DNA of 64,000 nt from Candidatus Limnocylindrales bacterium. GTDB taxonomy: Bacteria; Chloroflexota; Limnocylindria; Limnocylindrales; CSP1-4. Position numbers and translations under genes: made by a program. Location of the stretch: positions 53,398-117,397 of the forward strand of contig DATFHO010000045.1 in assembly GCA_035248345.1 (NCBI GenBank). Reading direction: 5' to 3'. Numbering within the stretch: the first letter of the stretch is position 1; every line of letters starts with the position of its first letter. A model generated the notes under the pieces. It made no database searches, was not told the origin of the DNA, and saw only the letters and a program-made list of their open reading frames with translations. Positions 9,339 through 55,728 of this stretch are shown here, one piece after another.

Positions 9339-10063
9339 GCTTCCTCGAGCGGGTGGACCAGACCATCCGCCGAAGCCCCGTCTGGCGCTCGCTGTTCCGC
9401 AACCCGTATCCGACGGACGAGCGGTCACGCGCCTACGCGGTCATGAACAATGTGTTCCTCCACCTGCACCCGGTGCGGGTCCGGCAGCACGCGGTGAAGT
9501 TCGCCTACACGTTCTGCCTGGGCGGCCTGTCGTTCTTCCTGTTCCTCGTCCTGACCGTGACGGGCGTCTACCTGATGTTCTTCTACATCCCGTCGACGAC
9601 GCACGCGTACACGGACATCCTGAACATCCAGTCGAGCGTGGCGTTCGGGCAGATCACCCGCAACGTGCACCGGTGGGGCGCCCACCTGATGGTGTTCTTC
9701 GTCTTCCTGCACATGATGCGGGTCTTCTACCACGGGGCCTACAAGCCGCCGCGCGAGTTCAACTGGGTCGTCGGCGTGCTGCTCCTGCTCATGACGATCG
9801 CCCTGAGCTTCACCGGCTACCTGCTCCCGTGGGACCAGATCAGCTACTGGGCCATCACGATCGGCCTGAACATGGCGAGCTACACGCCGGTCATCAACAC
9901 GCCGATCCAGAACTTGATCTTCGGTGGCTTGGAGGTCGGGCAGAACACGCTGCTCCGCTTCTACGTGCTCCACATCATGGTCCTGCCGCTCGTGGCAGCC
10001 ATCCTCCTCGCGGTGCACTTCTGGCGCATCCGCAAGGACGGCGGGATCTCCGGGCCGCTGTGA
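9335..10063 (+). CDS. cytochrome b6-type cytochrome b (N-terminal four-helix half; PetB/QcrB-like)
   Basis: TTG at 9335 with GGAGGA 9 nt upstream. Helix B reads HRWGAHLMVFFVFLH (His 14 residues apart). Helix D reads HIMVLPLVAAILLAVH (His 15 apart, b6-type spacing). Also carries the FCLGG motif and WDQISYWA. Confidence 0.9.
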   Translation: MSFLERVDQTIRRSPVWRSLFRNPYPTDERSRAYAVMNNVFLHLHPVRVRQHAVKFAYTFCLGGLSFFLFLVLTVTGVYLMFFYIPSTTHAYTDILNIQSSVAFGQITRNVHRWGAHLMVFFVFLHMMRVFYHGAYKPPREFNWVVGVLLLLMTIALSFTGYLLPWDQISYWAITIGLNMASYTPVINTPIQNLIFGGLEVGQNTLLRFYVLHIMVLPLVAAILLAVHFWRIRKDGGISGPL

Positions 10064-10066
10064 TCC

Positions 10067-10693
10067 ATGACTGACCAAAAGACCGAGCCGCGCGAGTCAC
10101 GCGGCGCGATCCAGCCGGTCGATCCCGCCCGTCGGACGGAGATCGACAAGCAGCGCGTGCCCATGTCCGCGCGGCCGTACCGGCTGCTCGCGATGGTCAA
10201 GCAGGACGCCGTCGTCCGTGTCCAGAAGGAACCGGACGACACGGTCATGACCTGGCCGCACCTGCTCTCGATCGAGTTCCTCGCGGCGGTCGTCATGAGC
10301 ATCTTCCTGCTGCTCATGGGCCTGTTCATCAACGCGCCGCTCGAGGAGCTGGCGAACGCGAACGTCACCCCGCCGGTCGCGAAGGCGCCGTGGTACCTGC
10401 TCGGGCTGCAGGAGATGCTGGCCTACTTCCACCCGGTCATCTCCGGCGTGCTCGTGCCGTTCCTGTACATCCTCGGCGCCGGCTTCATCCTGCCGTACCT
10501 GGACCGGGCAAACATCGAGGCGAAGAAGCCGTCGGATCGGAAAACCGCCGTCGTGCTGTTCAGCCTGCTGTGCGTGCTCGGCCTCATGGTCACGTTCGTG
10601 GGCGTGTTCTTCCGCGGCCCAGGCTACTCGCTCGTGACGCCGTTCCTGCCCTTCTTCGACAACTTCACCAACGGCCTCCACTTCGCCCTGTAA
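10067..10693 (+). CDS. cytochrome b C-terminal half / subunit IV (PetD-like)
   Basis: 208 aa with three TM helices. The Qo-loop region VTPPVAKAPWYLLGLQEMLAYF aligns with the PEWY(F) segment of PetD. Starts 4 nt after the cyt b stop. Confidence 0.85.
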   Translation: MTDQKTEPRESRGAIQPVDPARRTEIDKQRVPMSARPYRLLAMVKQDAVVRVQKEPDDTVMTWPHLLSIEFLAAVVMSIFLLLMGLFINAPLEELANANVTPPVAKAPWYLLGLQEMLAYFHPVISGVLVPFLYILGAGFILPYLDRANIEAKKPSDRKTAVVLFSLLCVLGLMVTFVGVFFRGPGYSLVTPFLPFFDNFTNGLHFAL

Positions 10694-10706
10694 GACCGAA
10701 GAGCTG

Positions 10707-11381
10707 ATGAGCAACTACCACCTCGCGCCCGCCGACAAGCCGAAGGCCCTCACGCCGCAGGCCCTCAGATCGCTCCGCCAGGATCCCGTCCAGGGCATCT
10801 CTCGCCGGACGCTGCTCCGCCGCTCGATCGGTGGTGCCGCGCTGCTCTGGCTCACCGAGGTCGCGGCCGGGTCCATCGGCTTCCTGTGGCCGAACACGAA
10901 GGGCGGCTTCGGCAGCGTCATCAAGATCGGCAAGATCGCGGACATCAAGTCCGCGAACTCGTCCATCCCGTTCGCGAACGGCTTCCCGGTGTATTACCAG
11001 GAGGCCCGCGCCTACATCATGCTGGTCGACACGGCCCGCCAGGAGTTCATCCCCGGCGAGGACAAGACCGGCGACGGCACCGCGCTGAACGTCCGTGCGC
11101 TCTACCAGCGCTGCCCGCACCTCGGCTGCAAGCCGAACCCGTGCCTCAAGAACTACTGGTTCGAGTGCCCGTGCCACGGCTCCCGCTACGACCGGCTCGG
11201 GATCAAGGCCCAGGGCGCGCAGTACGGCCCGGCGCCGCGCGGGATGGACCGCTTCTCGATCACGGTCGACGCTGACGGCAACCTGATCGTCGACACGTCG
11301 AAGATCACCCTCGGTCCCCTGCCGATTCCGGTTGGCCAGCCCGGCATCATCCCGCCGAAGAGCCCGGTCGGCTGCATCTGA
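10707..11381 (+). CDS. Rieske [2Fe-2S] protein with Tat-type signal/anchor
   Basis: 224 aa. Twin-arginine region ISRRTLLRRSIGGAALLWL. Cluster boxes CPHLGC and CPCHGSRY. Confidence 0.9.
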   Translation: MSNYHLAPADKPKALTPQALRSLRQDPVQGISRRTLLRRSIGGAALLWLTEVAAGSIGFLWPNTKGGFGSVIKIGKIADIKSANSSIPFANGFPVYYQEARAYIMLVDTARQEFIPGEDKTGDGTALNVRALYQRCPHLGCKPNPCLKNYWFECPCHGSRYDRLGIKAQGAQYGPAPRGMDRFSITVDADGNLIVDTSKITLGPLPIPVGQPGIIPPKSPVGCI

Positions 11382-12442
11382 TGACCGACGAAACGAACCG
11401 CCCGGAAGGGTCGGATCGAAGCCTTCCCGCACGACGCGACGCGGACGCCGGGGTACCGGCGCGGACCGCGGATCGGTTCACGGCGCCGCGCCAGACCCGC
11501 GCCGTCGGCGGGCTGACCTCGGAGCGCGCCGCGAAGATCGTGCGGCAGTCGGGCGACGCCCGCTGGGTGGCGTTCCTCGGGCTCGTGATCGTCGCCCTGT
11601 TCGTCATCGTCTATTACTTCTACGAGCTCGGAGTGCCGATCATCAACACGACGCCGCGCATGCAGGCCGAGGCGGACCTCCAGCAGGTCACCTCCGTCGA
11701 GCGCGGGTACAACCTCTTCGAGGCGAACTGCGCGAAGTGCCACGGCGCGAACGGCGAAGGTGGCGTCGGGCCGGTGCTGAACGACCAGAACAAGCTCTTC
11801 TCGCACCTGACCGAGGCCTACATCCGGAACGTCCTTGAGGTCGGCGGCCGGTATGTCTGCGGCAATCCGAAGAGCGTGATGCCGGTGTGGTCGAACACGA
11901 ACGGCGGGCCGCTGAACTACGTCCAGATCGAGGATCTCATCGCATTCATCCGCGCCGATTCCACGCAGGAATACGTAAAGCGGAGCGCGACGCTGAATGA
12001 GCCGATCATCGGAGATGACGGCAAGGTCGAGACGTTCAAGGGTTGGCGCGACGTGACCTTCAAGCCGGATCCGAGCGCATCGCCGGTTCCGGACTGCTAC
12101 CTCGGCGACAAGGGCTCGGCCACACCGGCACCGGCCGCCTCCCTCGGGCCGGACGCGCCGACCTTCAACGTCGTCGGCCTGAACATCGCCTTCGACAAGA
12201 AGACACTCGACGTCGCCGCCAACACGCCATTCGCGATCGACTTCGACAACCAGGATCCCGCCGGTGTCCAGCACAACGTGGAGATCCGGGACGACACGGG
12301 CCAGGTCCTGCAGGACCAGCCGCTCATCGATGGCGGGCAGAAGACCACCTACGTCTACAGCGGACTGCCGGCCGGCACCTACACGTTCATCTGCAAGGTG
12401 CACCCGATCCCCAACATGACCGGCACCTTGACGGTGAAATAG
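11381..12442 (+). CDS. membrane-anchored monohaem cytochrome c fused to a C-terminal type-1 copper (cupredoxin) domain
   Basis: 353 aa.
- TM anchor: WVAFLGLVIVALFVIVYYFY.
- Haem motif CAKCH, with a distal SVMPVW methionine.
- Pro/Ala linker.
- Cupredoxin ligand set: VQHNVEI ... FICKVHPIPNMTGTLTVK (His, Cys, His, Met).
The ATG overlaps the Rieske stop by 1 nt. Confidence 0.85.
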   Translation: MTDETNRPEGSDRSLPARRDADAGVPARTADRFTAPRQTRAVGGLTSERAAKIVRQSGDARWVAFLGLVIVALFVIVYYFYELGVPIINTTPRMQAEADLQQVTSVERGYNLFEANCAKCHGANGEGGVGPVLNDQNKLFSHLTEAYIRNVLEVGGRYVCGNPKSVMPVWSNTNGGPLNYVQIEDLIAFIRADSTQEYVKRSATLNEPIIGDDGKVETFKGWRDVTFKPDPSASPVPDCYLGDKGSATPAPAASLGPDAPTFNVVGLNIAFDKKTLDVAANTPFAIDFDNQDPAGVQHNVEIRDDTGQVLQDQPLIDGGQKTTYVYSGLPAGTYTFICKVHPIPNMTGTLTVK

Positions 12443-12444
12443 CG

Positions 12445-13983
12445 ATGGCCCGAGCGCTTTCCGCTGGTTCCGTGCGCCATCGACGGACCATGTTCGGCCT
12501 GGTCGACAGCGACGGTTGGGCATGGGCGTCGATCAAGGCGTTCATCTGGCTGATCGTGATCATCATGGTCCTCGGGTACATCCCGGACCGCGCCTACTAC
12601 TTCGTGGTCTCACGCACGATCGACCTCGGGATCATCGGCTGGTCGCCGGTGAACCTCTGCCCGCCCGAGAACACCGCCGCGATGCCGTGCCCCGTTCCGG
12701 CCGGCGCGATCCTGCCGTGGCAGGCCGCGGGTGACGCGGCCGCGCTGCCGGCCGCTCGCTACGGCGGCAACGCGATCCAGCTCGGCTCGAACCTGCTGTA
12801 CGCAGGCGGGTCGGACGCGAGCGGGGCCACCTCGACGACGTACGCAACGAAGCTCGACAAGGGCAACTTCGGACCCTGGACCGAGGGCCCGGCACTGCCC
12901 GAGGCGCGCACCGGCGCAGCCGTCACGACGCTCAGCGGCACCGCCTACATGGTGGGCGGCATCGGCCCGGACGGGAAGCCGACGAAGACCGTGTGGACGC
13001 TCGGACTCGACCCCGATACGAACGCGCTCAAGACGTGGTCGACCGTCTGCACCGTCGCGCTCAAGACGGGCGAGACCTGCGCCAACGACAAGCTCCTGAC
13101 GCTGCCGGACGCGCGGACCGGTTCCTCGATCGTCGCGGTCTCGGACGGCTTGCTCGTGATCGGCGGGCGCGGTGCCGACAACAAGCCGACCTCCACGGTC
13201 TGGAAGTCCACGCTCAACGACAAGGGCGTCCTCGGCGCGTTCGCCGAGCAGCCGGGCCTGCCGCATGCGATCACCGACGCCGCGGCCGGGCTGGAGGGCA
13301 CGTTCGTCTTCGTCTATGGCGGCACCGGCGACAGCGGCCCGGTCGGCGGGGTCATGCGCTCTGCCTACGGGAACGTCACGCCGGCCCTCGCAAGCGGCGC
13401 CCCGACCCCGGATCCGAGCGCGGCACCGGCCCAGGGGATCGTCGGCTGGGCGACGCTCGACGCGGCGAACATGCCCGTCGCTCGAACGGGTGGCGCGGGC
13501 TTCTCGGCCAACGGCGCCATGTACTACGCCGGCGGTTCCGACGGCACGAAGACCTACGGTGACGTCTACTGGGCGCTGCCGGACGCCGCAGGCAACCTCC
13601 CCGGTGGCTGGCACCACCTCGACGCGACGGACCTGCCTGGTGGCCTCGTGAACGCCGCGCCGATCGTGGCCGGGACGAACGTGATCCTCATCGGCGGCCA
13701 GGCGGACGGCGGGGCGCTCACCTCGTCGACGCACGCCTCGCTCGCACCGCAGGAGCCCTTCTTCCGGCTGGGCCTGGTCGGCGCCACGGTTCCGGGCCTC
13801 CAGATCTCGGGTGAGATCGGGCAGCAGCTCGGCTACCTCGCGGCTGCGGGTGTCGGCACCGGCAACTTCGTGATCCTCGTGATCGTCGCGTGGGCGTTCA
13901 ACCACCGACCGCAGATCATGGAGTGGCGCGAGCGCCGCAAGCGCGAGAAGGACGCCAAGGTCCCCTCCGAACCCGAAGCGTAA
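12445..13983 (+). CDS. Kelch-repeat beta-propeller protein bracketed by N- and C-terminal TM helices; last gene of the Rieske/cyt b operon
   Basis: Internal ATG at 12445 of ORF 12043..13983, 2 nt after the previous stop. N-terminal TM is IKAFIWLIVIIMVLGYI. Repeats of the type LYAGGSD.., AYMVGGIGPDGKPT.TVW, LLVIGGRGADNKPTSTVW, FVFVYGG and MYYAGGSDG (Kelch GG..W pattern). C-terminal TM is GNFVILVIVAWAF followed by a Lys/Arg/Glu tail. Confidence 0.75.
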   Translation: MARALSAGSVRHRRTMFGLVDSDGWAWASIKAFIWLIVIIMVLGYIPDRAYYFVVSRTIDLGIIGWSPVNLCPPENTAAMPCPVPAGAILPWQAAGDAAALPAARYGGNAIQLGSNLLYAGGSDASGATSTTYATKLDKGNFGPWTEGPALPEARTGAAVTTLSGTAYMVGGIGPDGKPTKTVWTLGLDPDTNALKTWSTVCTVALKTGETCANDKLLTLPDARTGSSIVAVSDGLLVIGGRGADNKPTSTVWKSTLNDKGVLGAFAEQPGLPHAITDAAAGLEGTFVFVYGGTGDSGPVGGVMRSAYGNVTPALASGAPTPDPSAAPAQGIVGWATLDAANMPVARTGGAGFSANGAMYYAGGSDGTKTYGDVYWALPDAAGNLPGGWHHLDATDLPGGLVNAAPIVAGTNVILIGGQADGGALTSSTHASLAPQEPFFRLGLVGATVPGLQISGEIGQQLGYLAAAGVGTGNFVILVIVAWAFNHRPQIMEWRERRKREKDAKVPSEPEA

Positions 13984-47379: not shown

Positions 47380-47393
47380 ATCGCATCGTCCTA

Positions 47394-47430
47394 GAACCCC
47401 GGGTCCCGACCACCCGGGGTTCTTTCTTTT
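47394..47430 (+). terminator. rho-independent terminator after tRNA-fMet
   Basis: GAACCCCGGGT (47394-404), loop CCCGACC, ACCCGGGGTTC (47412-422), followed by TTTCTTTT. Confidence 0.75.
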
Positions 47431-47447: not shown

Positions 47448-48203
47448 CTAGTCCCAGCGGAACGTCTTGATCGTGAGGGCGATCGCGGCCACGGCCCAGG
47501 CGGCGAGGATGCCGAGCGGCGCCGCGGGCGTCACGAGGCCGGTCCCGCCCGAGTCGAGCGCGTACCGCAGCAGCTCCGACAGGGCGGTTGCCGGAAGAAA
47601 AGCTGCGATCGGCTGCAGGAAGCCCGGCAGGTGGTCGACCGGCAGGATGATGCCGCCGAGCATCAGGAAGGCGAGGAACAGCGCGTTCGCGAGCGCAAGG
47701 GTTGCCTCTGCGCGGAGCGTCCCCGCGAGGAGCAGGCCGAGACCCGCGAAGGCCGCGGTGCCGAGGATGAGCGCCACGACGAAGAGCAGCGGCGACCACG
47801 CGGGTCCAGGTGCCCAGCCGAGGAACAGCACCGCCACGGCCATGAGCGCGACGACCTGGACGATCTCCAGCACGCCCACCGCGATGAGCTTCGCGGCGAT
47901 GAGCCCCCACCGTGGCAAGGGCGAGCCGCCGAGGCGCTTGAGGACGCCGTACGAGCGGTCGTAGCCCGTCGCGATCCCGAGGTTCACCATGCCCGCCGCG
48001 ATGAGCCCCAACGCGATCGAGCCGGGCAGCAGGAAGTCGACCGGGTGGTTCCCCAGCGGGATGACCGAGGTTCCTGCGAAGAACAGCAGGACCGCGACCG
48101 GGATGATGATCGTCGCCAGGATGTTCTCGCCGCGGCGGGCGGTGAGCTTGAGCTCGAGCGCCGCGAGCGCACCGATCGAACGGGTCACCGGCGCGGCGCT
48201 CAT
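47448..48203 (-). CDS. ABC-2-type transporter permease
   Basis: 251 aa with six TM helices. Typical ABC-2 layout (ENILATIIIPVAVLLFF...YGVLKRLGGSPLPRW...). The start overlaps the ATPase stop. Confidence 0.8.
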   Translation of the reverse strand: MSAAPVTRSIGALAALELKLTARRGENILATIIIPVAVLLFFAGTSVIPLGNHPVDFLLPGSIALGLIAAGMVNLGIATGYDRSYGVLKRLGGSPLPRWGLIAAKLIAVGVLEIVQVVALMAVAVLFLGWAPGPAWSPLLFVVALILGTAAFAGLGLLLAGTLRAEATLALANALFLAFLMLGGIILPVDHLPGFLQPIAAFLPATALSELLRYALDSGGTGLVTPAAPLGILAAWAVAAIALTIKTFRWD

Positions 48204-49147
48204 GGCACGGCCTCGATGTCGCGATCGCCGGTGATCTCGAGGTAGCGATCCTCGAGGGATGCCGCGCCGGCTCGCAGCTCCACGACGAGCAGGCCTTCTT
48301 TCGCCGCCCAGCTCGTGATCTCGGAGGCGACGTCCGCCGAGGCAGCTCCCGGCTCGATCTCGAAGGCAACGTCGGAGCCCCGGACGGCACGGAGGCGTGA
48401 TTCGCCGTGGAGCGCGGCGATCCGCCGGGCGAGCTGCTGGATGGCCTCGGGCGGGGGCGTCGCATGGAGGCGGAACTTGACGGCGGCGGAGCCGCCCTGG
48501 CTGATCGCGTCGACCGTGTCGTCAATCACGATCCGGCCACGATGGAGGATTGCGACGCGGGTCGCGAGCGCCTCGGCGTCGCCGAGATCGTGCGTCGTCA
48601 TGAGGATCGTGCGGCCCGCGTCGCGCAGTCCTGCGACGAGCGAGCGAGTCTCGCGCCGCGCCGCGGGATCCATGCCCGCGGTGGGCTCGTCGAGGATCAG
48701 CACCTCGGGCTCGCCCGCCAGCGCGATCGCGAGCGCGAGCCGCTGGCGCTCCCCACCGGACAGGCGGCGCACGCGGGTGCCCGCCACCATTGCCAGGCCC
48801 ACCTGGTCGATCAGCTCGTCCGGTAGCGGCCCGCCGCGATGGAAGGCGGCGTACATCCGCACGAGGTCCCGTGGCGTCGCGCGCGGCTCGAGCCCGGCGC
48901 CGCCCTGCAGCATCAGCCCGACCTTCGCCTTGTGCGCCGGCCCGCCGCGGCGCGGGTCCGTCCCGAGCACGCGCACCGTCCCCGCGTCCGGCGTTCGATA
49001 GCCCTCGATCGTCTCGACCGTGGTCGTCTTGCCGGCACCGTTCGGCCCGAGCAAGGCGACCAGCTCACCGGGTCGGACGACGAGGTCGACGCCGTCGAGC
49101 ACGGCCCGATCGCCGTAGGCCATTCGGAGGCCCGAAACCTCGATCAC
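48200..49147 (-). CDS. ABC transporter ATP-binding protein (ABC-2/DrrA/NosF-like subfamily)
   Basis: 315 aa. GTG at 49147 overlaps the TlpA-like stop (GTGA). Contains GPNGAGKTT, LSGGERQRLALAIAL and LILDEPTAGMD. Confidence 0.9.
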   Translation of the reverse strand: MIEVSGLRMAYGDRAVLDGVDLVVRPGELVALLGPNGAGKTTTVETIEGYRTPDAGTVRVLGTDPRRGGPAHKAKVGLMLQGGAGLEPRATPRDLVRMYAAFHRGGPLPDELIDQVGLAMVAGTRVRRLSGGERQRLALAIALAGEPEVLILDEPTAGMDPAARRETRSLVAGLRDAGRTILMTTHDLGDAEALATRVAILHRGRIVIDDTVDAISQGGSAAVKFRLHATPPPEAIQQLARRIAALHGESRLRAVRGSDVAFEIEPGAASADVASEITSWAAKEGLLVVELRAGAASLEDRYLEITGDRDIEAVP

Positions 49148-49668
49148 GGCATCGCCGCTTCCGACGGCGTCGCGATGGGACCGGGAGCGTTGCCGCTGAT
49201 CAGCGCGTACTGCCGCTCGAACTCGTCGTCGGTCAGCTCGCCGACCTGGATCGAGCGGAGGATCCCGTCACGGTCGATGAAGTAGGTCTGTGGCCGCGCC
49301 GCGACGCGATAGGCGGTGCGGATCTGTTTGTCCGGATCGTTCACGGTGGGCCAGGTCGCCGCGTACTGGGCAATGAAGTCCTGCGCGGGCGTGACCGGGT
49401 CGTCCATCAGGACCCCGACGATCGCGATGCCGTTGCTCCCGGCGCTGTATCTGGCGAGCTTGTCCTTGAGCAGCGGAAACTCGTCGCGGCAGGGGACGCA
49501 GCTCGGTCCCCAGAAGTTGACGACGACCGGCCGACCGCGAAGGGCGGCGAGGTCGAACGCCTGACCGTCGAGCGTCGAACCGACGATCCGTGGCGCCGGC
49601 GCGCCCTTGGCGATGAACGGGGCATCGTCGGTGGGGGTCGTGGTCGCGGTCGAGGTGCCCGTCCCCAT
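49144..49668 (-). CDS. TlpA/ResA-like thiol:disulfide oxidoreductase (thioredoxin fold)
   Basis: 174 aa from ATG 49668. Active site VVNFWGPSCVPCRDEFP, plus P.TYFIDRDG. An in-frame TM-like segment lies upstream of the ATG with no canonical start codon (see findings). Confidence 0.8.
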   Translation of the reverse strand: MGTGTSTATTTPTDDAPFIAKGAPAPRIVGSTLDGQAFDLAALRGRPVVVNFWGPSCVPCRDEFPLLKDKLARYSAGSNGIAIVGVLMDDPVTPAQDFIAQYAATWPTVNDPDKQIRTAYRVAARPQTYFIDRDGILRSIQVGELTDDEFERQYALISGNAPGPIATPSEAAMP

Positions 49669-49774
49669 GCCGGCGCGGATCTGGATCAGCGCGAACGTCA
49701 GGATTGCCGCCGCCGCCAGTCCGATGAGGATCAGCTGCCGGGTTCGATCGAGCTTGAGCGCCGTGTCCCGCCGC

Positions 49775-50905
49775 CTACTTGACCGTCAGCGTCCCGGTCA
49801 TCGCCGGGATCGGGTGGATGGAGCAGATGTAGGTGTAGGTGCCCGGCTGCAGCGCGTCGTACGTGTACGCCTGCGACTTGCCGCCATCCGTCGGTGCCTG
49901 CTTCTTGAGCACGGAGCCATCGCTCGACCGGAGCTCGACGTCGTGCGGCGTCCCCGGAGCGTCCTCGTTCACGAACCAGATCGTGAAGGGCTTTCCGGCC
50001 GCCGTCTCGAGCGTTTTCTCCTTGTACTCGAGCACCTTTGCCTCGACCGTGAGCGCTCCCGGAGGGGCGCCGGCGGCGCCACCCGGAGCGCCGGAACCCG
50101 CGGGCGCGCCCGAAGCGCCGGGAGTGCCGGTGCCGCCACCTGAGGCCACGGACGCGAAGAAGCCGGCCTGGGTGAGCCCGAGGAGGACGAAGGCCAGCGC
50201 GAAGACCTGCAGCGTCCGCAGCGGGAGCGGGATCGCCGGGATGTTCTCGAGGTGGCCGGTCTTGTCGGCCTCGACCGTCTTGCGGTACTCGGCCGTGGCA
50301 TCGAACAGCCAGCCCAGGAGCGTGTAGACGAGGAAGATCACCGCGAGGATCAGGACCCAGCCGCCGACCACGAGGCCGCCGAGGAGCGCCGCGGACCCGA
50401 GCGCGCCCATGAGCGGACGGATCGACGGGCCCGGCATGTGGACGCCGGGTGGCGGACCCTCGTGGATGACCGCCGGCAGCATCGTCCGGTTCTCGAGTTG
50501 GTCGTAGTCGCGGAGCGCGTCGCGCATCCAGACGGTGAGCGTCAGGGCCATGATCACCGCGCCGATCGCGAGCCAGACGCCGCCGAGCACGAGCCCCAGG
50601 AAGAGCATTGCCCCACCGAAGGCGACGACGATCGGTGCCGCGGAGCCGCCCGGCATGTGCACCGAGGCGGGAGTGATCGGCTGGATGCGGGCGGGAGCAC
50701 GTCGGCTCGGACCGAGCGTCGCGAACTTGCGGAACGTGAATGCGAACCAGGCGATGAACAGGAGCGCCAGCAGGAACGGGAGGAGCGCGATCAGCGCTTT
50801 CCAGTCCGGCATGACGAAGATCGACAGGGTGTCGAGGACCGTCGTGACGAGGTCCTTCGCGGACGCTGCCGCCGATGCTGCTGCGGAAGGCGCTGCCGAC
50901 TCCAC
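49775..50905 (-). CDS. polytopic membrane protein with duplicated HMPGxS two-helix module and C-terminal type-1 copper (cupredoxin) domain
   Basis: 376 aa with about six TM helices.
- Internal repeat: VHMPGGSAAPIVVAFGGAMLFLGLVLGGVWLAIGAVIMALTLTVWMRDALRDY versus VHMPGPSIRPLMGALGSAALLGGLVVGGWVLILAVIFLVYTLLGWLFDATAEY.
- Gly/Ala/Pro linker.
- Cupredoxin ligand set: TPHDVEL ... YICSIHPIPAMTGTLTVK. Confidence 0.8.
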   Translation of the reverse strand: MESAAPSAAASAAASAKDLVTTVLDTLSIFVMPDWKALIALLPFLLALLFIAWFAFTFRKFATLGPSRRAPARIQPITPASVHMPGGSAAPIVVAFGGAMLFLGLVLGGVWLAIGAVIMALTLTVWMRDALRDYDQLENRTMLPAVIHEGPPPGVHMPGPSIRPLMGALGSAALLGGLVVGGWVLILAVIFLVYTLLGWLFDATAEYRKTVEADKTGHLENIPAIPLPLRTLQVFALAFVLLGLTQAGFFASVASGGGTGTPGASGAPAGSGAPGGAAGAPPGALTVEAKVLEYKEKTLETAAGKPFTIWFVNEDAPGTPHDVELRSSDGSVLKKQAPTDGGKSQAYTYDALQPGTYTYICSIHPIPAMTGTLTVK

Positions 50906-50917
50906 GAGAGGCCGGCG

Positions 50918-51103
50918 CTAGTCGCCGAGGCCGGCTTCGAGGACCGCGACGAGGAGTCCCATGGCTGCGCCGAGCGCGATCAGCATCGTGACCCCGGCCC
51001 ACTCGATGTGATAGCCGAGGACCGGCGCGAGCCCACCGTAGACGGCGGCCAGCACGACGCAGCTGATTGCGATGATGACCGCGTTGCGGTGACGTCGAAG
51101 CAT
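50918..51103 (-). CDS. small two-helix membrane protein (candidate oxidase subunit IV-like component)
   Basis: Internal ATG at 51103 of ORF 50918..51481, 15 nt after the ctaE stop. Product: MLRRHRNAVIIAISCVVLAAVYGGLAPVLGYHIEWAGVTMLIALGAAMGLLVAVLEAGLGD. The longer ORF version overlaps ctaE out of frame and is rejected. Confidence 0.5.
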   Translation of the reverse strand: MLRRHRNAVIIAISCVVLAAVYGGLAPVLGYHIEWAGVTMLIALGAAMGLLVAVLEAGLGD

Positions 51104-51117
51104 GTCGTCGATCCTCG

Positions 51118-51750
51118 CTACGGGATCAGGTACAGGATCGAGAAGAGCAGGATCCAGACCACGTCGACGAAGTGCCAGTACAGCGACACCGCCTCGACGG
51201 CGTCGTGGTGCTTCGACGAGAACTGGCCGGCCATGCCGCGGTAGAGGACCACGCCGAGCATCAGCACGCCACCGAACACGTGGGCGCCGTGGAAGCCCGT
51301 GAGCGTGAAGTACGTCGTCCCGAACGCGCCCGACCCGAGCGTCATGCCTTCGCCGAACAGCAGGCTGTAGTCGTAGACCTGCATGATCAGGAAGATGATG
51401 CCGAGCACGAACGTGATCGAAATGTTCCGGATGTAGCCCTTCCGGTCGCCCTTGCGGATCGACCAGACGGCGAACTGGCACGTGAACGAGCTCGTGATCA
51501 GCAGGATGGTGGCCAGCATGATCGGCCCGAGCGGGTCGAGGATGTGCTTGAACGCTGCGGGTGGCCAGGGCTGGTTCGCGGCGCGGGTCGCGAAGTACGC
51601 GGCGAACAGGCCGGAGAAGAACATCACCTCGGAGGTGATGAACAGGATCATCCCGAGGATCGGGTTGCTGATCCCTCGCGAGTGCCCGGCCGCGACCGGA
51701 TGCGCCTCGGCGTGTCCGGCGGCGGTCATGGCGTGTGCTTCAGCGGTCAC
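51118..51750 (-). CDS. ctaE: cytochrome c oxidase subunit III
   Basis: 210 aa with five TM helices. Contains FFSGLFAAYF, FTLTGFHGAHVFGG and the C-terminal EAVSLYWHFVDVVWILLF. Confidence 0.9.
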   Translation of the reverse strand: MTAEAHAMTAAGHAEAHPVAAGHSRGISNPILGMILFITSEVMFFSGLFAAYFATRAANQPWPPAAFKHILDPLGPIMLATILLITSSFTCQFAVWSIRKGDRKGYIRNISITFVLGIIFLIMQVYDYSLLFGEGMTLGSGAFGTTYFTLTGFHGAHVFGGVLMLGVVLYRGMAGQFSSKHHDAVEAVSLYWHFVDVVWILLFSILYLIP

Positions 51751-53456
51751 GAGGCGGAGCCTCCGGCGGGGATCGCCTTCGGCGCGTCGTCGTGGCCGGG
51801 GTCGTCATGGCCGCCGTTGCCGTGGCCGCCCGAGAGGAGGCCGTGGCGCTGGTCGAACAGCGGTCGCTCGGAGCGGATGTCCGGCAGGCGGTCGAAGTTG
51901 TAGGGCGGGGGCGGCGAGGACGTCGCCCACTCGAGCGTGTTGCCCTCCCACGGGTCGTCGCCGGCGATCTTGCCGCCGCGCAGCGACACGAGGACGTTCC
52001 AGATGAACGGCAGCATCGAGATGCCGATGATGAAGCCGCCGATGGTGGCGACGAGGTTCCAGTCGTTCCAGCCGGCGTCGCCCGCGTAGTCCGCGATGCG
52101 CCGCGGCATCCCCGCGAGGCCGAGCATGTGCATCGGGAAGAACGTCAGGTTGAACCCGACGAACATCAGCACGAAGTGGACCTTGCCGAGGGTCTCGTCC
52201 AGCATCCGGCCGGTCATCTTCGGGAACCAGTAGTAGATCCCCGCGAACACGCCGAACGCCGAGCCACCGAAGAGCACGTAGTGCAGGTGCGCGACGACCC
52301 AGTAGGTGTCGTGCAGGGCGAAGTCGACGGGCACGGCGGCGCTGAAGGCACCGTTGATGCCGCCGATCAGGAACATCGTCAGGAAGCCGATGGCGAAGAT
52401 CAGCGGCGTCGAGAACGTCAGCTGGCCCCGGAACATCGTGAAGATCCAGTTGAACATCTTCACGCCGGTCGGGACCGCGATCATGAATGTCATCAGCGCA
52501 AAGAACGGCAGGAACACGGCGCCGGTCGTGAACATGTGGTGCGCCCAGACCGAGAAGCCCAGGGCCCCGATGCCCGCCGTGGCGAAGATGAACGCCTTGT
52601 AGCCGAACAGCGGCTTGCGGCTGAAGACCGGCAGGACCTCGCTGATCACGCCCATCGCGGGCAGGACCATGACGTACACCGCGGGGTGCGAGTAGAACCA
52701 GAACACGTTCTGGTAGAGCACCGGGATGCCGCCCGTCTGGAAGTTGAAGAACGATCCGCCGTAGTTGCGGTCGATGAAGAGCATGACCAGGGCGCTGGTG
52801 ATGACCGGCGTGGCCATGACCACGAGGACGCTCGTCACGAGGACGGTCCAGACCATGATCGGCATGCGGAACAGCGTCATGCCCGGGGCGCGCATCTTGA
52901 AGATGGTGACGAGGAAGTTGATGCCGCCGAGGATGGAGCTCGTCCCGATCAGGACGAGCGACACGATCCACAGGTCCTGGCCGGGGCCTGGGGAGGCGAG
53001 CGCGCCGCGCTCCGTGAGCGGCGGGTAGCTCGTCCAGCCGGCGGCAGCAGCGCCGCCCGGCGTCAGGAAGCCCGCGAGGAGGAGGATGCCGCCGAGCGGC
53101 AGCATCCAGAAGCTCAGCGCGTTGATGCGCGGGAACGCCATGTCCGGCGCGCCGATCTGGAGCGGGACGATGTAGTTCCCGAGCCCGGCGAGCATCGGGA
53201 TGATGAACAGGAAGATCATCACCGTCGCGTGGATCGAGAACGACTCGTTGTAGACGTGCTCGTTCGTGAAGATCTGGATTCCGGGCTGCGCGAGCTCCGT
53301 CCGGACCAGCAGGGCGAAGATGCCGCCGATCAGGAAGAACACGAACGAGTTGATGACGTACATGATCCCGATCTTCTTGTGATCGGTGGTCGTCAGCCAC
53401 TCGTAGATGCCGCCTCGGTAGGCCGTGACGGCGGGGCTCAGCGCGTGGGTCGCCAT
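51747..53456 (-). CDS. ctaD: cytochrome c oxidase subunit I (haem-copper oxidase, A-type)
   Basis: 569 aa. Contains TTDHKKIGIMY, FWFYSHPAVYVMVLP, WAHHMFTTG, HDTYWVVAHLHYVLFGG and FPMHMLGLAGMPRR. Confidence 0.95.
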   Translation of the reverse strand: MATHALSPAVTAYRGGIYEWLTTTDHKKIGIMYVINSFVFFLIGGIFALLVRTELAQPGIQIFTNEHVYNESFSIHATVMIFLFIIPMLAGLGNYIVPLQIGAPDMAFPRINALSFWMLPLGGILLLAGFLTPGGAAAAGWTSYPPLTERGALASPGPGQDLWIVSLVLIGTSSILGGINFLVTIFKMRAPGMTLFRMPIMVWTVLVTSVLVVMATPVITSALVMLFIDRNYGGSFFNFQTGGIPVLYQNVFWFYSHPAVYVMVLPAMGVISEVLPVFSRKPLFGYKAFIFATAGIGALGFSVWAHHMFTTGAVFLPFFALMTFMIAVPTGVKMFNWIFTMFRGQLTFSTPLIFAIGFLTMFLIGGINGAFSAAVPVDFALHDTYWVVAHLHYVLFGGSAFGVFAGIYYWFPKMTGRMLDETLGKVHFVLMFVGFNLTFFPMHMLGLAGMPRRIADYAGDAGWNDWNLVATIGGFIIGISMLPFIWNVLVSLRGGKIAGDDPWEGNTLEWATSSPPPPYNFDRLPDIRSERPLFDQRHGLLSGGHGNGGHDDPGHDDAPKAIPAGGSAS

Positions 53457-53469
53457 GCTCGCTGGCTCC

Positions 53470-54567
53470 TTACTGGACCGTGAGAGTGCCGGTCATGTTG
53501 CTGTGGATCGAGCAGAAGAACGTGTACGTCCCGGCCGCGAGCGGCTGGTACGTGTAGTCCTTCTTCGTGCCGCCGGAGATCGTGTCCTGGTTCTCCACGA
53601 CCGTTCCGGAGCTGTCCTTGACGTCGATGTCGTGCGTGATGCTCGACGGATCCGAGTTGGTGAACTCGATGACGAACGGCGCGTTCGCCGGGGCCGTGAG
53701 CGTCTTCGTCAGGAAGTCGATGTTCTTCGCCTCTTCCTTGAGGACCGGCGCGCCCGACGGCGCCGGCGGCGGCGTCGCGTTCTCGACGGCGACGAGGTTC
53801 TGGAGCCACGCGTCGTAGTCCGCCTGGCTCATCGCGGTGACGCTGAAGAGCATCACGCGGTGGCCCGTGCCGCACAGCTCGGCGCACTGGCCGTGGAACG
53901 TCTGGCCGACCTCGTCCTCGTTCACCGTGAACTCGAACTTGTTGATCTGGCCGGGAATGACGTCGCGCTTGAAGAGGAAGCGCGGCACGTACCAGGCGTG
54001 GATGACGTCGCCGCTGGTGAGCGTGACCTGCACCTTCTTTCCGACAGGGACGGCCATGCCGCCGCCCTCGCCGATCGGCTTCGTCTGGGTGGCGACGTGC
54101 TTGCCCTGGGCGTCGAGGTACTCGAACTGCCACTGGAACTGGCCGGCGATCACGTGGATGCGGACGTCCGGGTTATCGGTCGTCGCATCGACCACGTTCA
54201 GCGTGTTCCACGAAAGCCCGAACAGCACCAGGACGATCGCGGTCGGGATGAGCGTCCACAGGACCTCGACGAAGTTGTTGCCGTGGGTCTGGGGCGGCAG
54301 CTCCGTGTCTTCCGGCCGTCGCCGGTAGCGAAGGATGCTCCAGATGATCAGGCCTTCGACCGCGAGGAAGACCGCGACGGCGATCGCGAACACGATGTCG
54401 TACAGCTCGCTCGTCCTGACCGCCTGCGCGGTCGCCGGGGCCGGCGGATAGAGCGATCGACCGGCGCCGCTCAGGAAGACGACCGCGACGATGGCGACCA
54501 GGAGGGCGACGGCACCGCCCGCGACGATTGCGCTGGAGGCGGGGCGCTTCCTCGGGCTGCTCGACAT
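53470..54567 (-). CDS. ctaC: cytochrome c oxidase subunit II with an additional C-terminal type-1 copper (cupredoxin) domain
   Basis: 365 aa.
- Two TM helices.
- CuA site: DVIHAWYVP ... GQCAELCGTGHRVM.
- Pro-rich linker.
- Second cupredoxin: ITHDIDV ... FFCSIHSNMTGTLTVQ (His, Cys, His, Met). Confidence 0.9.
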   Translation of the reverse strand: MSSSPRKRPASSAIVAGGAVALLVAIVAVVFLSGAGRSLYPPAPATAQAVRTSELYDIVFAIAVAVFLAVEGLIIWSILRYRRRPEDTELPPQTHGNNFVEVLWTLIPTAIVLVLFGLSWNTLNVVDATTDNPDVRIHVIAGQFQWQFEYLDAQGKHVATQTKPIGEGGGMAVPVGKKVQVTLTSGDVIHAWYVPRFLFKRDVIPGQINKFEFTVNEDEVGQTFHGQCAELCGTGHRVMLFSVTAMSQADYDAWLQNLVAVENATPPPAPSGAPVLKEEAKNIDFLTKTLTAPANAPFVIEFTNSDPSSITHDIDVKDSSGTVVENQDTISGGTKKDYTYQPLAAGTYTFFCSIHSNMTGTLTVQ

Positions 54568-54711
54568 GACTCCTCAGCTGGCGTCGGGGCCGGTCGCCCG
54601 ACACCCGGGACGGATGGCAATCGGACGGGGAACGCGAACGGCCGACCACGCGGTCAGCCGAGGGCCATCATAGCGCGAGGCCCGCACGGCGCGTCGTGCC
54701 ACCATGATCGG

Positions 54712-55728
54712 GTGACCTCTCGCCGATCGCTCGCCGCCACGCTCGCGTCGGCGGTGCTGGCGATCGCGGCCGCCGTCACCCTCCCGGCCGTTGCGCTCGC
54801 GCATGGCGCGGTCCCGCCCGACCCCCCGACGTTCCTCAACATCCTCTTCGACTGGAACTTCGAGCCGCTCGTCGCGGGCGGGCTGCTCGTGTCCGCGCTC
54901 GCGTGGCTCTGGATCGTCCGGCGCGTCGGACGGCTGCATCCGGGCCATGGCGTGCCGATCGGCCGGTCGGCGGCGTTCTTCGGCGGGCTGTTCGCGATCG
55001 CCGTTGCGCTGATGTCCGGCATCGAGCGCTACGACACGACGTTGTTCTCGCTGCACATGGTCCAGCACCTGCTGCTGATGCTGGTTGCTGCACCGCTGCT
55101 CGTGCTGGCGGCGCCCGTCACGCAGCTGCTGCGCGCCTCATCCGCCGAGGTGCGGCAGCGGCGGCTCATTCCCGTCCTGCACTCCGGCGTCGTCGCCGCG
55201 CTCGGGCACCCGGTCGTGACGTGGCTCACCTTCAGCCTGGTCCTGTGGCTGTCGCACTTCTCGCCGTTCTTCAACGATGCGCTCGAGGATCGCGGCGTCC
55301 ACGACGCCGAGCACGCGATCTACCTGGTCGCGTCGCTGCTCTTCTGGTGGCCGGCGATCGCCATGGATCCGGCCCGCCGGCGCATGCCGCACGCGGTCCG
55401 CGTGCTGTACGTGCTGCTGCAGCTGCCGGTGAACTCCTTCGTCGGCATGGCGATCACGTTCGCCGACTCGCCGCTCTACCCGCACTACGCGACGCTGAAC
55501 GCGCCGTACGGGATCTCGGCGCTCGCCGACCAACAGATCGCGGGCGGGACGATGTGGCTCGCCGGCGACATCGTGTTCATCGGGGCGATCCTGCTGATCG
55601 TCGGCGCGTGGATGCGCCACGAGGAGCGCGATGCGCCGGCGGCGGAACGGCGAGCCGATGCGCAGCGGGCCGCCCTGGCCGAGCGCGCCGACCAGCTCGC
55701 CCGCGCCCGCGCCGAGGGCCGCCGCTAG
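54712..55728 (+). CDS. ctaG: cytochrome c oxidase assembly factor CtaG (Bacillus caa3-CtaG type membrane protein)
   Basis: GTG at 54712 within ORF 53425..55728. Signal-like N-terminus, then seven or more TM helices with HMVQHLLLM, HPVVTW and GGTMWLAGD. Divergent from ctaC. Confidence 0.75.
   Translation: MTSRRSLAATLASAVLAIAAAVTLPAVALAHGAVPPDPPTFLNILFDWNFEPLVAGGLLVSALAWLWIVRRVGRLHPGHGVPIGRSAAFFGGLFAIAVALMSGIERYDTTLFSLHMVQHLLLMLVAAPLLVLAAPVTQLLRASSAEVRQRRLIPVLHSGVVAALGHPVVTWLTFSLVLWLSHFSPFFNDALEDRGVHDAEHAIYLVASLLFWWPAIAMDPARRRMPHAVRVLYVLLQLPVNSFVGMAITFADSPLYPHYATLNAPYGISALADQQIAGGTMWLAGDIVFIGAILLIVGAWMRHEERDAPAAERRADAQRAALAERADQLARARAEGRR

What the first reader, a model, noticed from the sequence alone, without database searches (positions are those of the whole stretch)
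49775..50905. Six-helix membrane protein with an internal HMPGxS duplication and a third cupredoxin, inside the oxidase operon
Seen in sequence: two tandem modules of about 55 aa each share the pattern VHMPG(G/P)S..P, two TM helices, then W/L..DA..(D/E)Y. They are preceded and followed by further helices. A Gly/Ala/Pro linker follows, then a cupredoxin ending YTYICSIHPIPAMTGTLTVK. That ending is nearly identical to the end of the bc-complex cytochrome c subunit (YTFICKVHPIPNMTGTLTVK).

Established knowledge (from memory, needs checking): actinobacterial oxidase subunit IV (CtaF) has a similar two-helix hairpin. It is preceded by a His/Pro/Ser/Trp-Pro motif and followed by an aromatic/acidic motif.

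Inference: this looks like a duplicated CtaF-like oxidase subunit that tethers an additional blue-copper carrier. I cannot name a characterised protein with this architecture. Its position between ctaE/small subunit and tlpA argues that it is part of the oxidase or its electron-delivery path.
Basis: partly seen in the sequence, partly recalled or inferred. Interest (0 to 1): 0.7.

Follow-up and report, generated by a model that had tools for sequence, protein, structure and literature searches.

The report
Oxidase subunit carrying tethered blue-copper domain
This gene encodes a membrane subunit of a respiratory oxidase, built from two copies of a helix pair that normally begins oxidase subunit III, with a blue-copper electron-carrier domain tethered to its outer end; it is conserved in an uncultured soil and freshwater bacterial class and suggests copper domains replace soluble cytochrome c there.

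Summary
ORF 49775..50905 (-) encodes 376 aa:
- an N-terminal amphipathic helix;
- six TM helices, including two tandem two-helix modules (41% identical, E=1e-13), each opening with VHMPGxSxxP and closing with WxxDAxx(D/E)Y;
- a Gly/Ala/Pro/Ser linker of about 30 aa;
- a type-1 cupredoxin with invariant His-Cys-His-Met ligands.

The protein passes Pfam Cyt_c_ox_IV (CtaF), and each module alone hits the same C-terminal part of that profile. One refinement: the module is the TM1-TM2 hairpin of canonical oxidase subunit III. Its profile hits almost only COX3 N-termini in the PDB, and the adjacent ctaE is the 5-TM form lacking those helices.

The order ctaC-ctaD-ctaE-small ORF-target-tlpA holds in essentially all 80 related loci. 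At least 216 species genomes carry the gene, nearly all Limnocylindria (Chloroflexota) MAGs.

Charge distribution and COX3 homology both place the cupredoxin outside the cell membrane. Paralogous cupredoxins (47-49% identical) are fused to CtaC and to the cytochrome c subunit of the b6c-type complex.

Best reading: a split subunit III/CtaF equivalent that anchors a blue-copper carrier on the oxidase. I found no paper describing it. It is a new variant of known kinds, and the function is inferred.

The parts
49775..50905 (-). Whole ORF, 376 aa: duplicated subunit III/CtaF-type hairpin protein with a C-terminal cupredoxin
   Evidence: ORF list. Pfam Cyt_c_ox_IV, Cupredoxin_1 and Copper-bind. More than 1706 homologues with the same architecture.
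50813..50884 (-). N-terminal amphipathic helix (aa 8-31), predicted outside; the least conserved helical part
   Evidence: AlphaFold2 helix H8-31. Below the hydropathy threshold. Mean conservation 0.37.
50732..50803 (-). TM1 (aa 35-58), followed by a basic cytoplasmic loop (aa 59-82: 5 K/R, 0 D/E)
   Evidence: The Pfam alignment places it opposite CtaF TM2.
50504..50659 (-). Module 1 (aa 83-134): HMPGGSAAP, two TM helices, then WMRDALRDY; a COX3 TM1-TM2-like hairpin
50285..50440 (-). Module 2 (aa 156-207): HMPGPSIRP, two TM helices, then WLFDATAEY; the most conserved part. It is preceded by the invariant LPAxxHxGPPPGV.
   Evidence: 20 of 52 positions are at least 95% conserved across 80 species.
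50216..50284 (-). Conserved cytoplasmic loop (aa 208-230) with the ADxTGHLENIP motif
   Evidence: Invariant columns in A1 and A5. Conservation data.
50150..50215 (-). TM6 (aa 231-252), which carries the chain from the cytoplasmic side to the outside
50057..50149 (-). Flexible Gly/Ala/Pro/Ser tether (aa 253-283)
   Evidence: pLDDT below 50. 81% G/A/P/S, length 20-55 aa across the family.
49778..50056 (-). Type-1 (blue) copper cupredoxin domain (aa 284-376); ligands H321, C361, H364, M369
   Evidence: Pfam, PDB sequence hits, pLDDT about 97, Foldseek. Ligands are invariant.
50918..51103 (-). Conserved 61-aa two-TM ORF between ctaE and the target; possible counterpart of the N-terminal hairpin of actinobacterial CtaF
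   Evidence: Found in 75 of 80 loci. 3057 homologues, the 120 listed all 61-64 aa, no Pfam domain. Best PDB hit is M. tuberculosis CtaF residues 10-52, E=0.05. hhalign probability 62%.
51118..51750 (-). ctaE, the short 5-TM subunit III lacking TM1-TM2
   Evidence: The Pfam COX3 match covers only profile positions 78-255 of 258.
51747..53456 (-). ctaD, haem-copper oxidase subunit I
   Evidence: Pfam COX1 E=4.8e-162.
53470..54567 (-). ctaC, subunit II with a CuA motif and its own C-terminal cupredoxin
   Evidence: Pfam COX2_TM, COX2 and Cupredoxin_1. NCBIfam CoxB. The fusion is present in most related loci.
49144..49668 (-). TlpA/ResA-type thiol-disulfide oxidoreductase, conserved downstream
   Evidence: Pfam AhpC-TSA and Redoxin, NCBIfam ResA. 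Gene order.
11381..12442 (+). Monohaem cytochrome c subunit of the b6c-type complex, with a C-terminal paralogous cupredoxin; the proposed donor side of the relay
   Evidence: Pfam Cytochrom_C and Cupredoxin_1. At least 2432 homologues in the same lineage. 49% identical to the target's cupredoxin.

Best explanation
**What it is.** The protein is the Limnocylindria counterpart of the CtaF half of a split subunit III in an A-family (aa3-type) haem-copper oxidase.

**Membrane part.** The neighbouring ctaE supplies only TM3-TM7 of subunit III. This protein supplies the missing TM1-TM2 hairpin, and in two tandem copies. One extra helix lies on each side of the pair.
- One hairpin probably occupies the canonical subunit III position next to CtaE and CtaD.
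- The other may form an additional contact surface, possibly towards the quinol-oxidising complex. This step is inferred.

**Copper domain.** The last helix carries the chain to the outer face of the membrane. There a flexible 20-55-residue tether holds a type-1 blue-copper domain. That domain most likely shuttles single electrons to the CuA centre of CtaC. It would work with the paralogous cupredoxins fused to CtaC and to the cytochrome c subunit of the b6c-type complex. This would give a fully tethered route from quinol to oxygen without a soluble carrier.

**Shown.** Domain identities, the duplication, the conserved operon, the conserved copper ligands and the charge-based topology.

**Inferred.** Physical membership in the oxidase, and the direction and partners of electron transfer.
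For: **Family membership.**
- Pfam Cyt_c_ox_IV scores above its cut-off, with two stretches.
- Each module alone hits profile positions 82-122/125.

**Link to COX3 TM1-TM2.**
- In a profile search of the PDB with the stacked modules, 15 of 16 hits are the N-terminal TM1-TM2 hairpin of COX3 or of the Thermus I+III fusion. The best is mouse COX3 residues 8-64, E=4.6e-4.
- hhalign of the module profile against four COX3 hairpins gives 96.9% probability and E=1.4e-10.
- ctaE lacks those helices.

**Conservation.**
- The order ctaC-ctaD-ctaE-small ORF-target-tlpA holds in essentially all 80 loci.
- No other module copy occurs in the loci or in the 64-kb window.
- The modules and cytoplasmic loops are more conserved than the cupredoxin. 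That is more than a mere anchor would need.

**Topology.** The loops carrying HMPG are basic (5 K/R, 0 D/E in loop 1). This places them inside and the cupredoxin outside.

**Copper domain.**
- The His-Cys-His-Met ligands are invariant. All 80 loci keep the C-terminal Cys-x2-His-x(2-5)-Met signature.
- The cupredoxin fold is modelled with confidence and is closest to amicyanin, auracyanin and plastocyanin.

**Paralogous cupredoxins.**
- Cupredoxins are also fused to CtaC and to the cytochrome c subunit.
- The cytochrome c fusion is equally widespread.

**Precedents for blue-copper carriers feeding oxidases.** Auracyanin (PMC3150298); sulfocyanin in the SoxM supercomplex and halocyanin (PMC3062577).
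Against: - There is no experimental evidence of any kind. All relatives come from uncultured MAGs.
- Similarity to a solved mycobacterial CtaF is weak: hhalign probability 1.3%, and no CtaF chain appears among the module's PDB hits at E<=10.
- The membrane-only AlphaFold2 model has low confidence (pLDDT 66). Its Foldseek search found nothing significant; a COX3 chain ranked third at E=1.8.
- CtaC already carries a cupredoxin, so the need for another on this subunit is unexplained.
- Which hairpin sits in the canonical position, and what the second one does, could not be determined.
Confidence: 0.6

Rival explanations
1. The protein is a free-standing, membrane-anchored blue-copper carrier, an auracyanin-B-like shuttle. 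Its multi-helix anchor descends from subunit III/CtaF but is no longer a stable part of the oxidase.
For: - With the family profile, the best PDB sequence hit is auracyanin A (E=2e-7).
- Auracyanin B is membrane-tethered and acts as a mobile carrier in Chloroflexus (PMC3150298).
- The long flexible linker would suit a diffusing shuttle.
Against: - A simple anchor would not need six helices.
- It would not need near-invariant cytoplasmic loops such as GPPPGVHMPGPSIRP and ADxTGHLENIP.
- It would not be expected to be more conserved than the copper domain itself.
- ctaE lacks TM1-TM2, and no other gene in the locus supplies them.
- The gene order is strictly fixed inside the oxidase operon.
Confidence: 0.15
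2. The cupredoxin domain is a copper-delivery or assembly factor for CuA or CuB rather than an electron carrier. It would act with the neighbouring TlpA and the divergent caa3-type CtaG.
For: - The operon contains assembly genes: TlpA/ResA directly downstream and Caa3_CtaG upstream on the other strand.
- Some cupredoxin-fold proteins are copper chaperones. CupA appears among the Foldseek hits at rank 32.
Against: - The full type-1 electron-transfer ligand set, His-Cys-His-Met with plastocyanin-like spacing, is invariant.
- The closest structures are electron carriers.
- Paralogous domains sit on CtaC and on a cytochrome c subunit, where a carrier role is the natural reading.
Confidence: 0.1
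3. The duplication mainly serves architecture. The second hairpin, with TM1 and TM6, forms the docking surface that joins the oxidase to the b6c-type complex or to a second oxidase. The cupredoxin is then positioned at that interface. This extends the best explanation rather than excluding it.
For: - In the M. smegmatis supercomplex the III-IV contacts are made by CtaE and CtaF. Variation in subunit III is thought to accommodate different partners (PMC8361435).
- The b6c-type complex here carries a matching cupredoxin on its cytochrome c subunit.
Against: - No data on complex formation exist.
- The two operons lie about 37 kb apart in the window.
- The monomer model says nothing about interfaces.
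Confidence: 0.25

Closest known systems
Actinobacterial CtaF (cytochrome c oxidase subunit IV, Pfam PF12270), the partner of 5-TM CtaE in a split subunit III
   Same: - Passes the Pfam model.
- Supplies a subunit III TM1-TM2-type hairpin next to a short CtaE.
- Has an H/P/S...P motif before the hairpin and an aromatic/acidic motif after it.
- Is encoded with the cta genes.
   Different: - The hairpin is present twice.
- There are 6 TM helices and 376 aa instead of 4 TM helices and about 140 aa.
- The N-terminal CtaF hairpin is absent; it may be the separate 61-aa ORF upstream.
- It carries a C-terminal cupredoxin.
- Direct similarity to solved mycobacterial CtaF is weak.
N-terminal TM1-TM2 hairpin of canonical 7-TM subunit III (COX3) of mitochondria and proteobacteria
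   Same: - HxxxPSxWP at the start and W(W)RDxxRE at the end correspond to HMPGxSxxP and WxRDAxRDY.
- Profile hits and hhalign support the match.
- The inferred orientation is the same, starting on the cytoplasmic or matrix side.
   Different: - It lies on a separate polypeptide from TM3-TM7.
- It is duplicated in tandem.
- The tight turn between its helices is 5-7 residues shorter than in COX3 (alignments).
Auracyanins of Chloroflexus and Roseiflexus, and other small type-1 copper carriers (amicyanin, plastocyanin)
   Same: - Same fold and the same His-Cys-His-Met site.
- Same phylum as auracyanin.
- Membrane tethering, as in auracyanin B.
- Best PDB profile hit and Foldseek hits.
   Different: - It is attached at its N-terminus to a polytopic oxidase-subunit-like anchor rather than to a single helix or lipid.
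- It is encoded inside the oxidase operon.
Oxidases and supercomplexes with a built-in carrier: caa3 oxidases (cytochrome c fused to subunit II) and the Sulfolobus SoxM supercomplex with sulfocyanin
   Same: The logic is the same: the electron carrier is fixed to the terminal oxidase. In SoxM, a blue-copper protein links a bc-analogous complex to the oxidase (PMC3062577).
   Different: - Here the carrier sits on the subunit III/IV-type subunit.
- Two further paralogous cupredoxins sit on subunit II and on the cytochrome c subunit.
- There is no sequence relationship to sulfocyanin beyond the fold.

Membership tests
Pfam Cyt_c_ox_IV (PF12270, actinobacterial CtaF) | Score above the curated gathering threshold of the family model | tested here: met
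   44.8 bits against a cut-off of 26.9, E=1.6e-11, two stretches. Module 2 alone scores 28.0 bits; module 1 alone scores 21.0 bits, below the cut-off.
Pfam Cyt_c_ox_IV (PF12270, actinobacterial CtaF) | Four-TM, roughly 130-140 aa architecture with an N-terminal hairpin plus a C-terminal hairpin | tested here: not met
   376 aa, six TM helices, C-terminal hairpin present twice, plus a cupredoxin. The N-terminal hairpin may be the separate 61-aa ORF, but only weakly supported (E=0.05; hhalign probability 62%; no Pfam hit).
Pfam Cyt_c_ox_IV (PF12270, actinobacterial CtaF) | Recognisable similarity to CtaF chains of solved supercomplexes | tested here: inconclusive
   No CtaF chain among the PDB hits of the module profile at E<=10.
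Pfam Cyt_c_ox_IV (PF12270, actinobacterial CtaF) | Encoded with the oxidase genes and paired with a 5-TM CtaE | tested here: met
   Conserved ctaC-ctaD-ctaE-small ORF-target order in the 80 loci. ctaE matches only COX3 profile positions 78-255.
Pfam Cyt_c_ox_IV (PF12270, actinobacterial CtaF) | Physical subunit of the purified oxidase or supercomplex | not testable with these tools
   All relatives are from uncultured MAGs. No proteomic or structural data were found.
Subunit III (COX3) TM1-TM2 hairpin | Sequence-profile similarity across the whole hairpin, including the HxxxPSxWP and WWRDxxRE motifs | tested here: met
   15 of 16 PDB hits are COX3 N-termini or the Thermus I+III fusion; best E=4.6e-4. 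hhalign gives 96.9% probability, E=1.4e-10 over 51 columns (the comparison set was taken from those hits, so the value is somewhat optimistic).
Subunit III (COX3) TM1-TM2 hairpin | Starts and ends on the cytoplasmic (N) side | tested here: met
   The loops before and after each module carry the positive charge (loop 1: 5 K/R, 0 D/E). That the COX3 N-terminus lies on the N side is established knowledge.
Subunit III (COX3) TM1-TM2 hairpin | Structural superposition on COX3 TM1-TM2 and packing against TM3-TM7 | tested here: inconclusive
   The membrane-only model has pLDDT 66. Foldseek found no significant hit; COX3 7jro_c ranked third at E=1.8.
Type-1 blue copper proteins (cupredoxins: plastocyanin, amicyanin, auracyanin) | Cupredoxin beta-sandwich fold | tested here: met
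   Pfam Cupredoxin_1 and Copper-bind. pLDDT about 97 with eight strands. Foldseek amicyanin E=3e-7, TM-score up to 0.81 on the target.
Type-1 blue copper proteins (cupredoxins: plastocyanin, amicyanin, auracyanin) | His, Cys, His, Met copper ligands with Cys-x2-His-x(2-4)-Met spacing | tested here: met
   H321, C361, H364 and M369 are invariant. The C-terminal signature (searched as C-x2-H-x(2-5)-M) is present in 80 of 80 loci.
Type-1 blue copper proteins (cupredoxins: plastocyanin, amicyanin, auracyanin) | Binds copper and transfers electrons at a suitable potential | not testable with these tools
   This needs expression of aa 284-376, spectroscopy and redox titration.
Auracyanin (Chloroflexota membrane-associated carrier) | Small protein attached by a single N-terminal helix or lipid, encoded away from the oxidase | tested here: not met
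   Auracyanin A is the best PDB profile hit (E=2e-7). However, this protein has a six-helix subunit III-type anchor and lies inside the cta operon. auraA and auraB are distant from the respiratory operons in Chloroflexus (PMC3150298).

The most novel reading that the evidence does not exclude
Limnocylindria may run an obligate quinol-to-oxygen supercomplex wired by three tethered blue-copper domains instead of cytochrome c domains. The domains sit on the cytochrome c subunit of the b6c-type complex, on CtaC and on this subunit. The duplicated subunit III hairpin would form the interface between the two complexes and hold the middle copper domain at that interface. In that reading, the 61-aa ORF plus this gene would also mark a gene-fission or gene-fusion relationship with the four-helix actinobacterial CtaF.
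Probability: 0.25. Interest if true: 0.7.

Novelty: new variant of a known kind. Interest (0 to 1): 0.45.

Why it matters
Limnocylindria are abundant, uncultured Chloroflexota of soils, sediments and fresh water. Genome papers treat their aerobic respiration as ordinary.

This locus suggests a different arrangement:
- their aa3-type oxidase has a subunit III split into three genes;
- the TM1-TM2 hairpin is duplicated;
- a blue-copper carrier is built into the enzyme, and paralogous copper domains sit on subunit II and on the cytochrome c subunit of the quinol-oxidising complex.

If confirmed, this would be a third way to wire complex III to complex IV without a soluble carrier. The known ways are fused or di-haem cytochrome c (caa3 oxidases, actinobacterial supercomplexes) and the archaeal SoxM/sulfocyanin system.

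It would also show how modular subunit III is. And it would link respiratory capacity to copper supply in a widespread environmental lineage.

Practically, public annotation is inconsistent. The same protein is named 'plastocyanin', 'cupredoxin domain-containing protein' or 'cytochrome c oxidase subunit 4'. The 61-aa partner is 'hypothetical'.

Tried and rejected
1. **Foldseek of a membrane-only AlphaFold2 model.** The model has low confidence (pLDDT 66) and no hit reached significance. The best E was 1.2; COX3 chains appeared only at ranks 3, 20 and 21. Structure therefore neither confirms nor denies the subunit III link.
2. **Direct comparison with M. tuberculosis CtaF.** hhalign of the family alignment gave 1.3% probability. 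No CtaF chain appeared in the module's PDB hits. I therefore rest the CtaF link on the Pfam model and on the COX3 hairpin, not on mycobacterial CtaF.
3. **Extended homology to COX3.** I considered that module 2, the TGHLENIP loop and TM6 might together correspond to COX3 TM1-TM3, because of a GH motif. HMMER and hhalign alignments stop at the end of the hairpin. Rejected.
4. **Apparent long or cupredoxin-less variants** (P0122, P0154, P0159, P0178, P0236, P0129). Their sequences turn into Arg/Pro/Ser-rich out-of-frame text, so they are frameshifted or truncated assemblies, not new architectures.
5. **The 61-aa ORF.** Pfam scans of 20 members gave only scattered chance hits. The large protein search returned only 61-64-aa stand-alone proteins in its top 120. 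The CtaF N-terminal link stays a lead.
6. **Literature.** Nine full-text searches and four papers read found no description of this architecture. A tenth attempt failed on input format.
7. **The downstream ABC pair.** NCBIfam gave only generic DrrAB-like matches.
Full report
**The observation.** ORF 49775..50905 on the minus strand (GTG start, 376 aa) is present as described. It contains VHMPGGSAAP (aa 82-91) and VHMPGPSIRP (aa 155-164). Each motif is followed by two hydrophobic helices and then by WMRDALRDY or WLFDATAEY. The two modules align without gaps at 41% identity over 66 residues, E=1e-13.

Hydropathy and an AlphaFold2 model agree on six transmembrane helices: about aa 35-62, 90-107, 110-138, 163-180, 182-216 and 229-246. 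An amphipathic helix lies at aa 8-31. A disordered Gly/Ala/Pro/Ser linker (aa 253-283) leads to a confidently modelled beta-sandwich, pLDDT about 97.

The window has exactly three ORFs ending in the same cupredoxin signature: this one, CtaC (53470..54567) and the cytochrome c subunit at 11381..12442. The three domains are 47-49% identical.

**What the membrane part is.** The whole protein passes Pfam Cyt_c_ox_IV (PF12270, actinobacterial CtaF) at 44.8 bits against a cut-off of 26.9, with two stretches. Scanned alone, each module hits the same profile positions, 82-122/125 (E=3.8e-4 and 2.6e-6). The repeated unit is therefore the C-terminal CtaF hairpin.

A profile of the stacked modules, searched against all PDB sequences, returned 16 hits at E<=10. 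Fifteen are the first two helices of subunit III (COX3) of mouse, plant, Rhodobacter, cattle and others, or of the Thermus I+III fusion. All fall at the same place, and the best is E=4.6e-4. The motifs correspond: HxxxPSxWP to HMPGxSxxP, and WWRDxxRE to WxRDAxRDY. hhalign of the module profile against four of those hairpins gives 96.9% probability and E=1.4e-10. That value is somewhat optimistic, because the comparison set came from the hits.

The neighbouring ctaE matches only positions 78-255 of the 258-position COX3 model, so it is the 5-TM form without TM1-TM2. It can be sharpened: this protein carries two copies of the subunit III TM1-TM2 hairpin that its ctaE lacks.

Direct similarity to a solved mycobacterial CtaF is weak. 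A Foldseek search with a low-confidence membrane-only model was uninformative.

**Distribution and context.** The family has more than 1706 members at 90% clustering, with the same Pfam combination. Sources name them 'plastocyanin', 'cupredoxin domain-containing protein' or 'cytochrome c oxidase subunit 4'. An exhaustive search with the membrane part found only 288 representatives at 50% clustering, so the family is narrow.

In one genome per species, 216 genomes encode a relative. Nearly all of the 80 best-matching genomes listed are named Limnocylindria, Limnocylindrales or Chloroflexota MAGs. In the 80 loci fetched, the order ctaC-ctaD-ctaE-small ORF-target-tlpA is kept wherever the contig allows. 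A divergent caa3-type ctaG lies upstream and an ABC-2 transporter pair downstream.

Every locus has exactly one ORF with exactly two modules, and no further copy occurs in the loci or the window. Intergenic gaps within ctaC-ctaD-ctaE-small ORF-target are 14 nt or less. No terminator-like site lies between the genes on the coding strand. Apparent long or truncated variants in the databases are frameshifted assemblies.

**Conservation pattern.** Across 80 species, down to 41% identity, the best-conserved parts are module 2, the segment before it (LPAxxHxGPPPGV), module 1 and the cytoplasmic loop ADxTGHLENIP. The copper domain is less conserved. The linker is the least conserved region and varies from 20 to 55 residues. 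The residues conserved in at least 95% of these species include:
- the His of each HMPG motif (H83, H156);
- the Trp and Asp of each closing motif (W126/D129, W199/D202);
- H218;
- the copper ligands H321, C361, H364 and M369.

This pattern fits a membrane part with specific protein contacts. It does not fit a passive anchor.

**Topology.** The loop after TM1 has 5 K/R and no acidic residue. The loops bearing the HMPG motifs lie on the same side. By the positive-inside rule they are cytoplasmic. That agrees with the known position of the COX3 N-terminus on the N side (established knowledge). TM6 then takes the chain outward, so the linker and cupredoxin are outside.

**The copper domain.** Sequence searches hit amicyanin, auracyanin, plastocyanin and the type-1 domains of nitrite reductases. 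Foldseek gives the same families at E down to 3e-7. The ligand set and the Cys-x2-His-x4-Met spacing are those of electron-transfer type-1 sites.

**Most likely mechanism.** The protein is the CtaF-type part of a split subunit III, and it also fixes a blue-copper carrier to the oxidase.
- The b6c-type operon at about 9338..12442 encodes cytochrome b, subunit IV, Rieske protein and a monohaem cytochrome c that ends in a paralogous cupredoxin.
- That fusion is as widespread as the target.
- CtaC keeps a CuA motif and carries the third cupredoxin.
- The natural reading is a tethered route: quinol, Rieske, haem c, one or more blue-copper domains, CuA, then the haem-copper core.

Precedents exist for blue-copper carriers feeding oxidases: auracyanin in Chloroflexus (PMC3150298), and sulfocyanin within SoxM and halocyanin (PMC3062577). 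Which hairpin fills the canonical site, what the second does, and why two oxidase-borne cupredoxins are needed remain open. I put 0.6 on this explanation as a whole. I put about 0.8 on 'oxidase subunit of the subunit III/CtaF type'.

**Rivals.**
- A free auracyanin-like shuttle with a relic anchor (0.15). The anchor's conservation and the lack of any other TM1-TM2 donor argue against it.
- A copper-assembly factor (0.1). The electron-transfer ligand set and the paralogues argue against it.
- An architectural role of the second hairpin in supercomplex formation (0.25). This is compatible with the main explanation.

**The small ORF.** The 61-aa ORF at 50918..51103 is conserved in 75 of 80 loci and has 3057 database relatives. 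The 120 listed are all 61-64 aa, without Pfam domain and mostly named 'hypothetical'. Its best PDB hit, with a single sequence or a profile, is the N-terminal hairpin of M. tuberculosis CtaF. The alignment is collinear and shares a Y...(V/I)EWAG(T/V)T motif (E=0.13 and 0.05; hhalign probability 62%). If real, the small ORF and the target lie in the same order as the two halves of actinobacterial CtaF. That would point to a gene fission or fusion. I treat this as a lead only.

**Novelty and score.** Nine literature searches found no description of this architecture. A recent comparative-genomics paper on these lineages mentions only cytochrome bd and 'microaerobic terminal oxidases'. The building blocks and the logic are all known: split subunit III, tethered blue-copper carriers and carrier-fused oxidases. 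This is therefore a new variant of known kinds, not a new category.

A respiratory-chain specialist would find the tandem hairpin and the three paralogous copper domains noteworthy, but not startling. The organisms are uncultured, so tests are not immediate. Interest 0.45.

Noticed in passing
window 50918..51103 (-): A conserved 61-aa two-TM ORF lies between ctaE and the target. It is present in 75 of 80 related loci and has 3057 database relatives; the 120 listed are all about 61-64 aa, have no Pfam domain and are mostly called 'hypothetical'. Its best PDB match is the N-terminal hairpin of M. tuberculosis CtaF (E=0.05), sharing a (V/I)EWAG(T/V)T motif. It may be the other half of a split CtaF.
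   Followed up: partly
window 53470..54567 (-): CtaC (subunit II, CuA motif intact) carries its own C-terminal type-1 cupredoxin ending TYTFFCSIHSNMTGTLTVQ. The fusion is present in most related loci: 57 ORFs have both the CuA and type-1 motifs, and 5 CtaC ORFs lack the cupredoxin.
   Followed up: partly
window 7482..9338 (+): A 618-aa GltD-like NAD(P)-binding flavoprotein with several 4Fe-4S motifs ends exactly where the cytochrome b reading frame of the b6c-type operon begins. This is an unusual neighbour for a quinol-oxidising complex, and its role is unknown.
   Followed up: no
window 12424..13983 (+): A Kelch-repeat beta-propeller protein with hydrophobic segments at both ends overlaps the end of the cytochrome c-cupredoxin gene. 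It may belong to the same operon.
   Followed up: no
window 49669..49775 (-): Upstream of the annotated ATG of the TlpA/ResA gene (49668), the same frame reads a TM-like stretch (QLILIGLAAAAILTFALIQIRAG). There is no ATG, GTG or TTG back to the stop that overlaps the end of the target gene. The membrane anchor of TlpA may start at a non-canonical codon.
   Followed up: partly
window 47448..49147 (-); related loci L001-L080: A DrrAB-like ABC-2 transporter pair (ATPase and permease) overlaps the tlpA stop codon. It is conserved downstream of tlpA in most related loci, so it may belong to the oxidase operon. A strong palindromic terminator-like hairpin lies at 47393..47423, just past it.
   Followed up: partly
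proteins P0122, P0154, P0159, P0178, P0236 (public metagenome predictions): Several 'longer' relatives in the protein collections are frameshifted translations. They switch into Arg/Pro/Ser-rich out-of-frame sequence, sometimes running through ctaE, the small ORF and the target. They could be mistaken for new fusions.
   Followed up: yes
window 54700..55728 (+): A caa3-type cytochrome oxidase assembly factor CtaG (Pfam Caa3_CtaG, E=7.5e-67) is encoded divergently from ctaC. It is conserved in that position in most related loci.
   Followed up: partly
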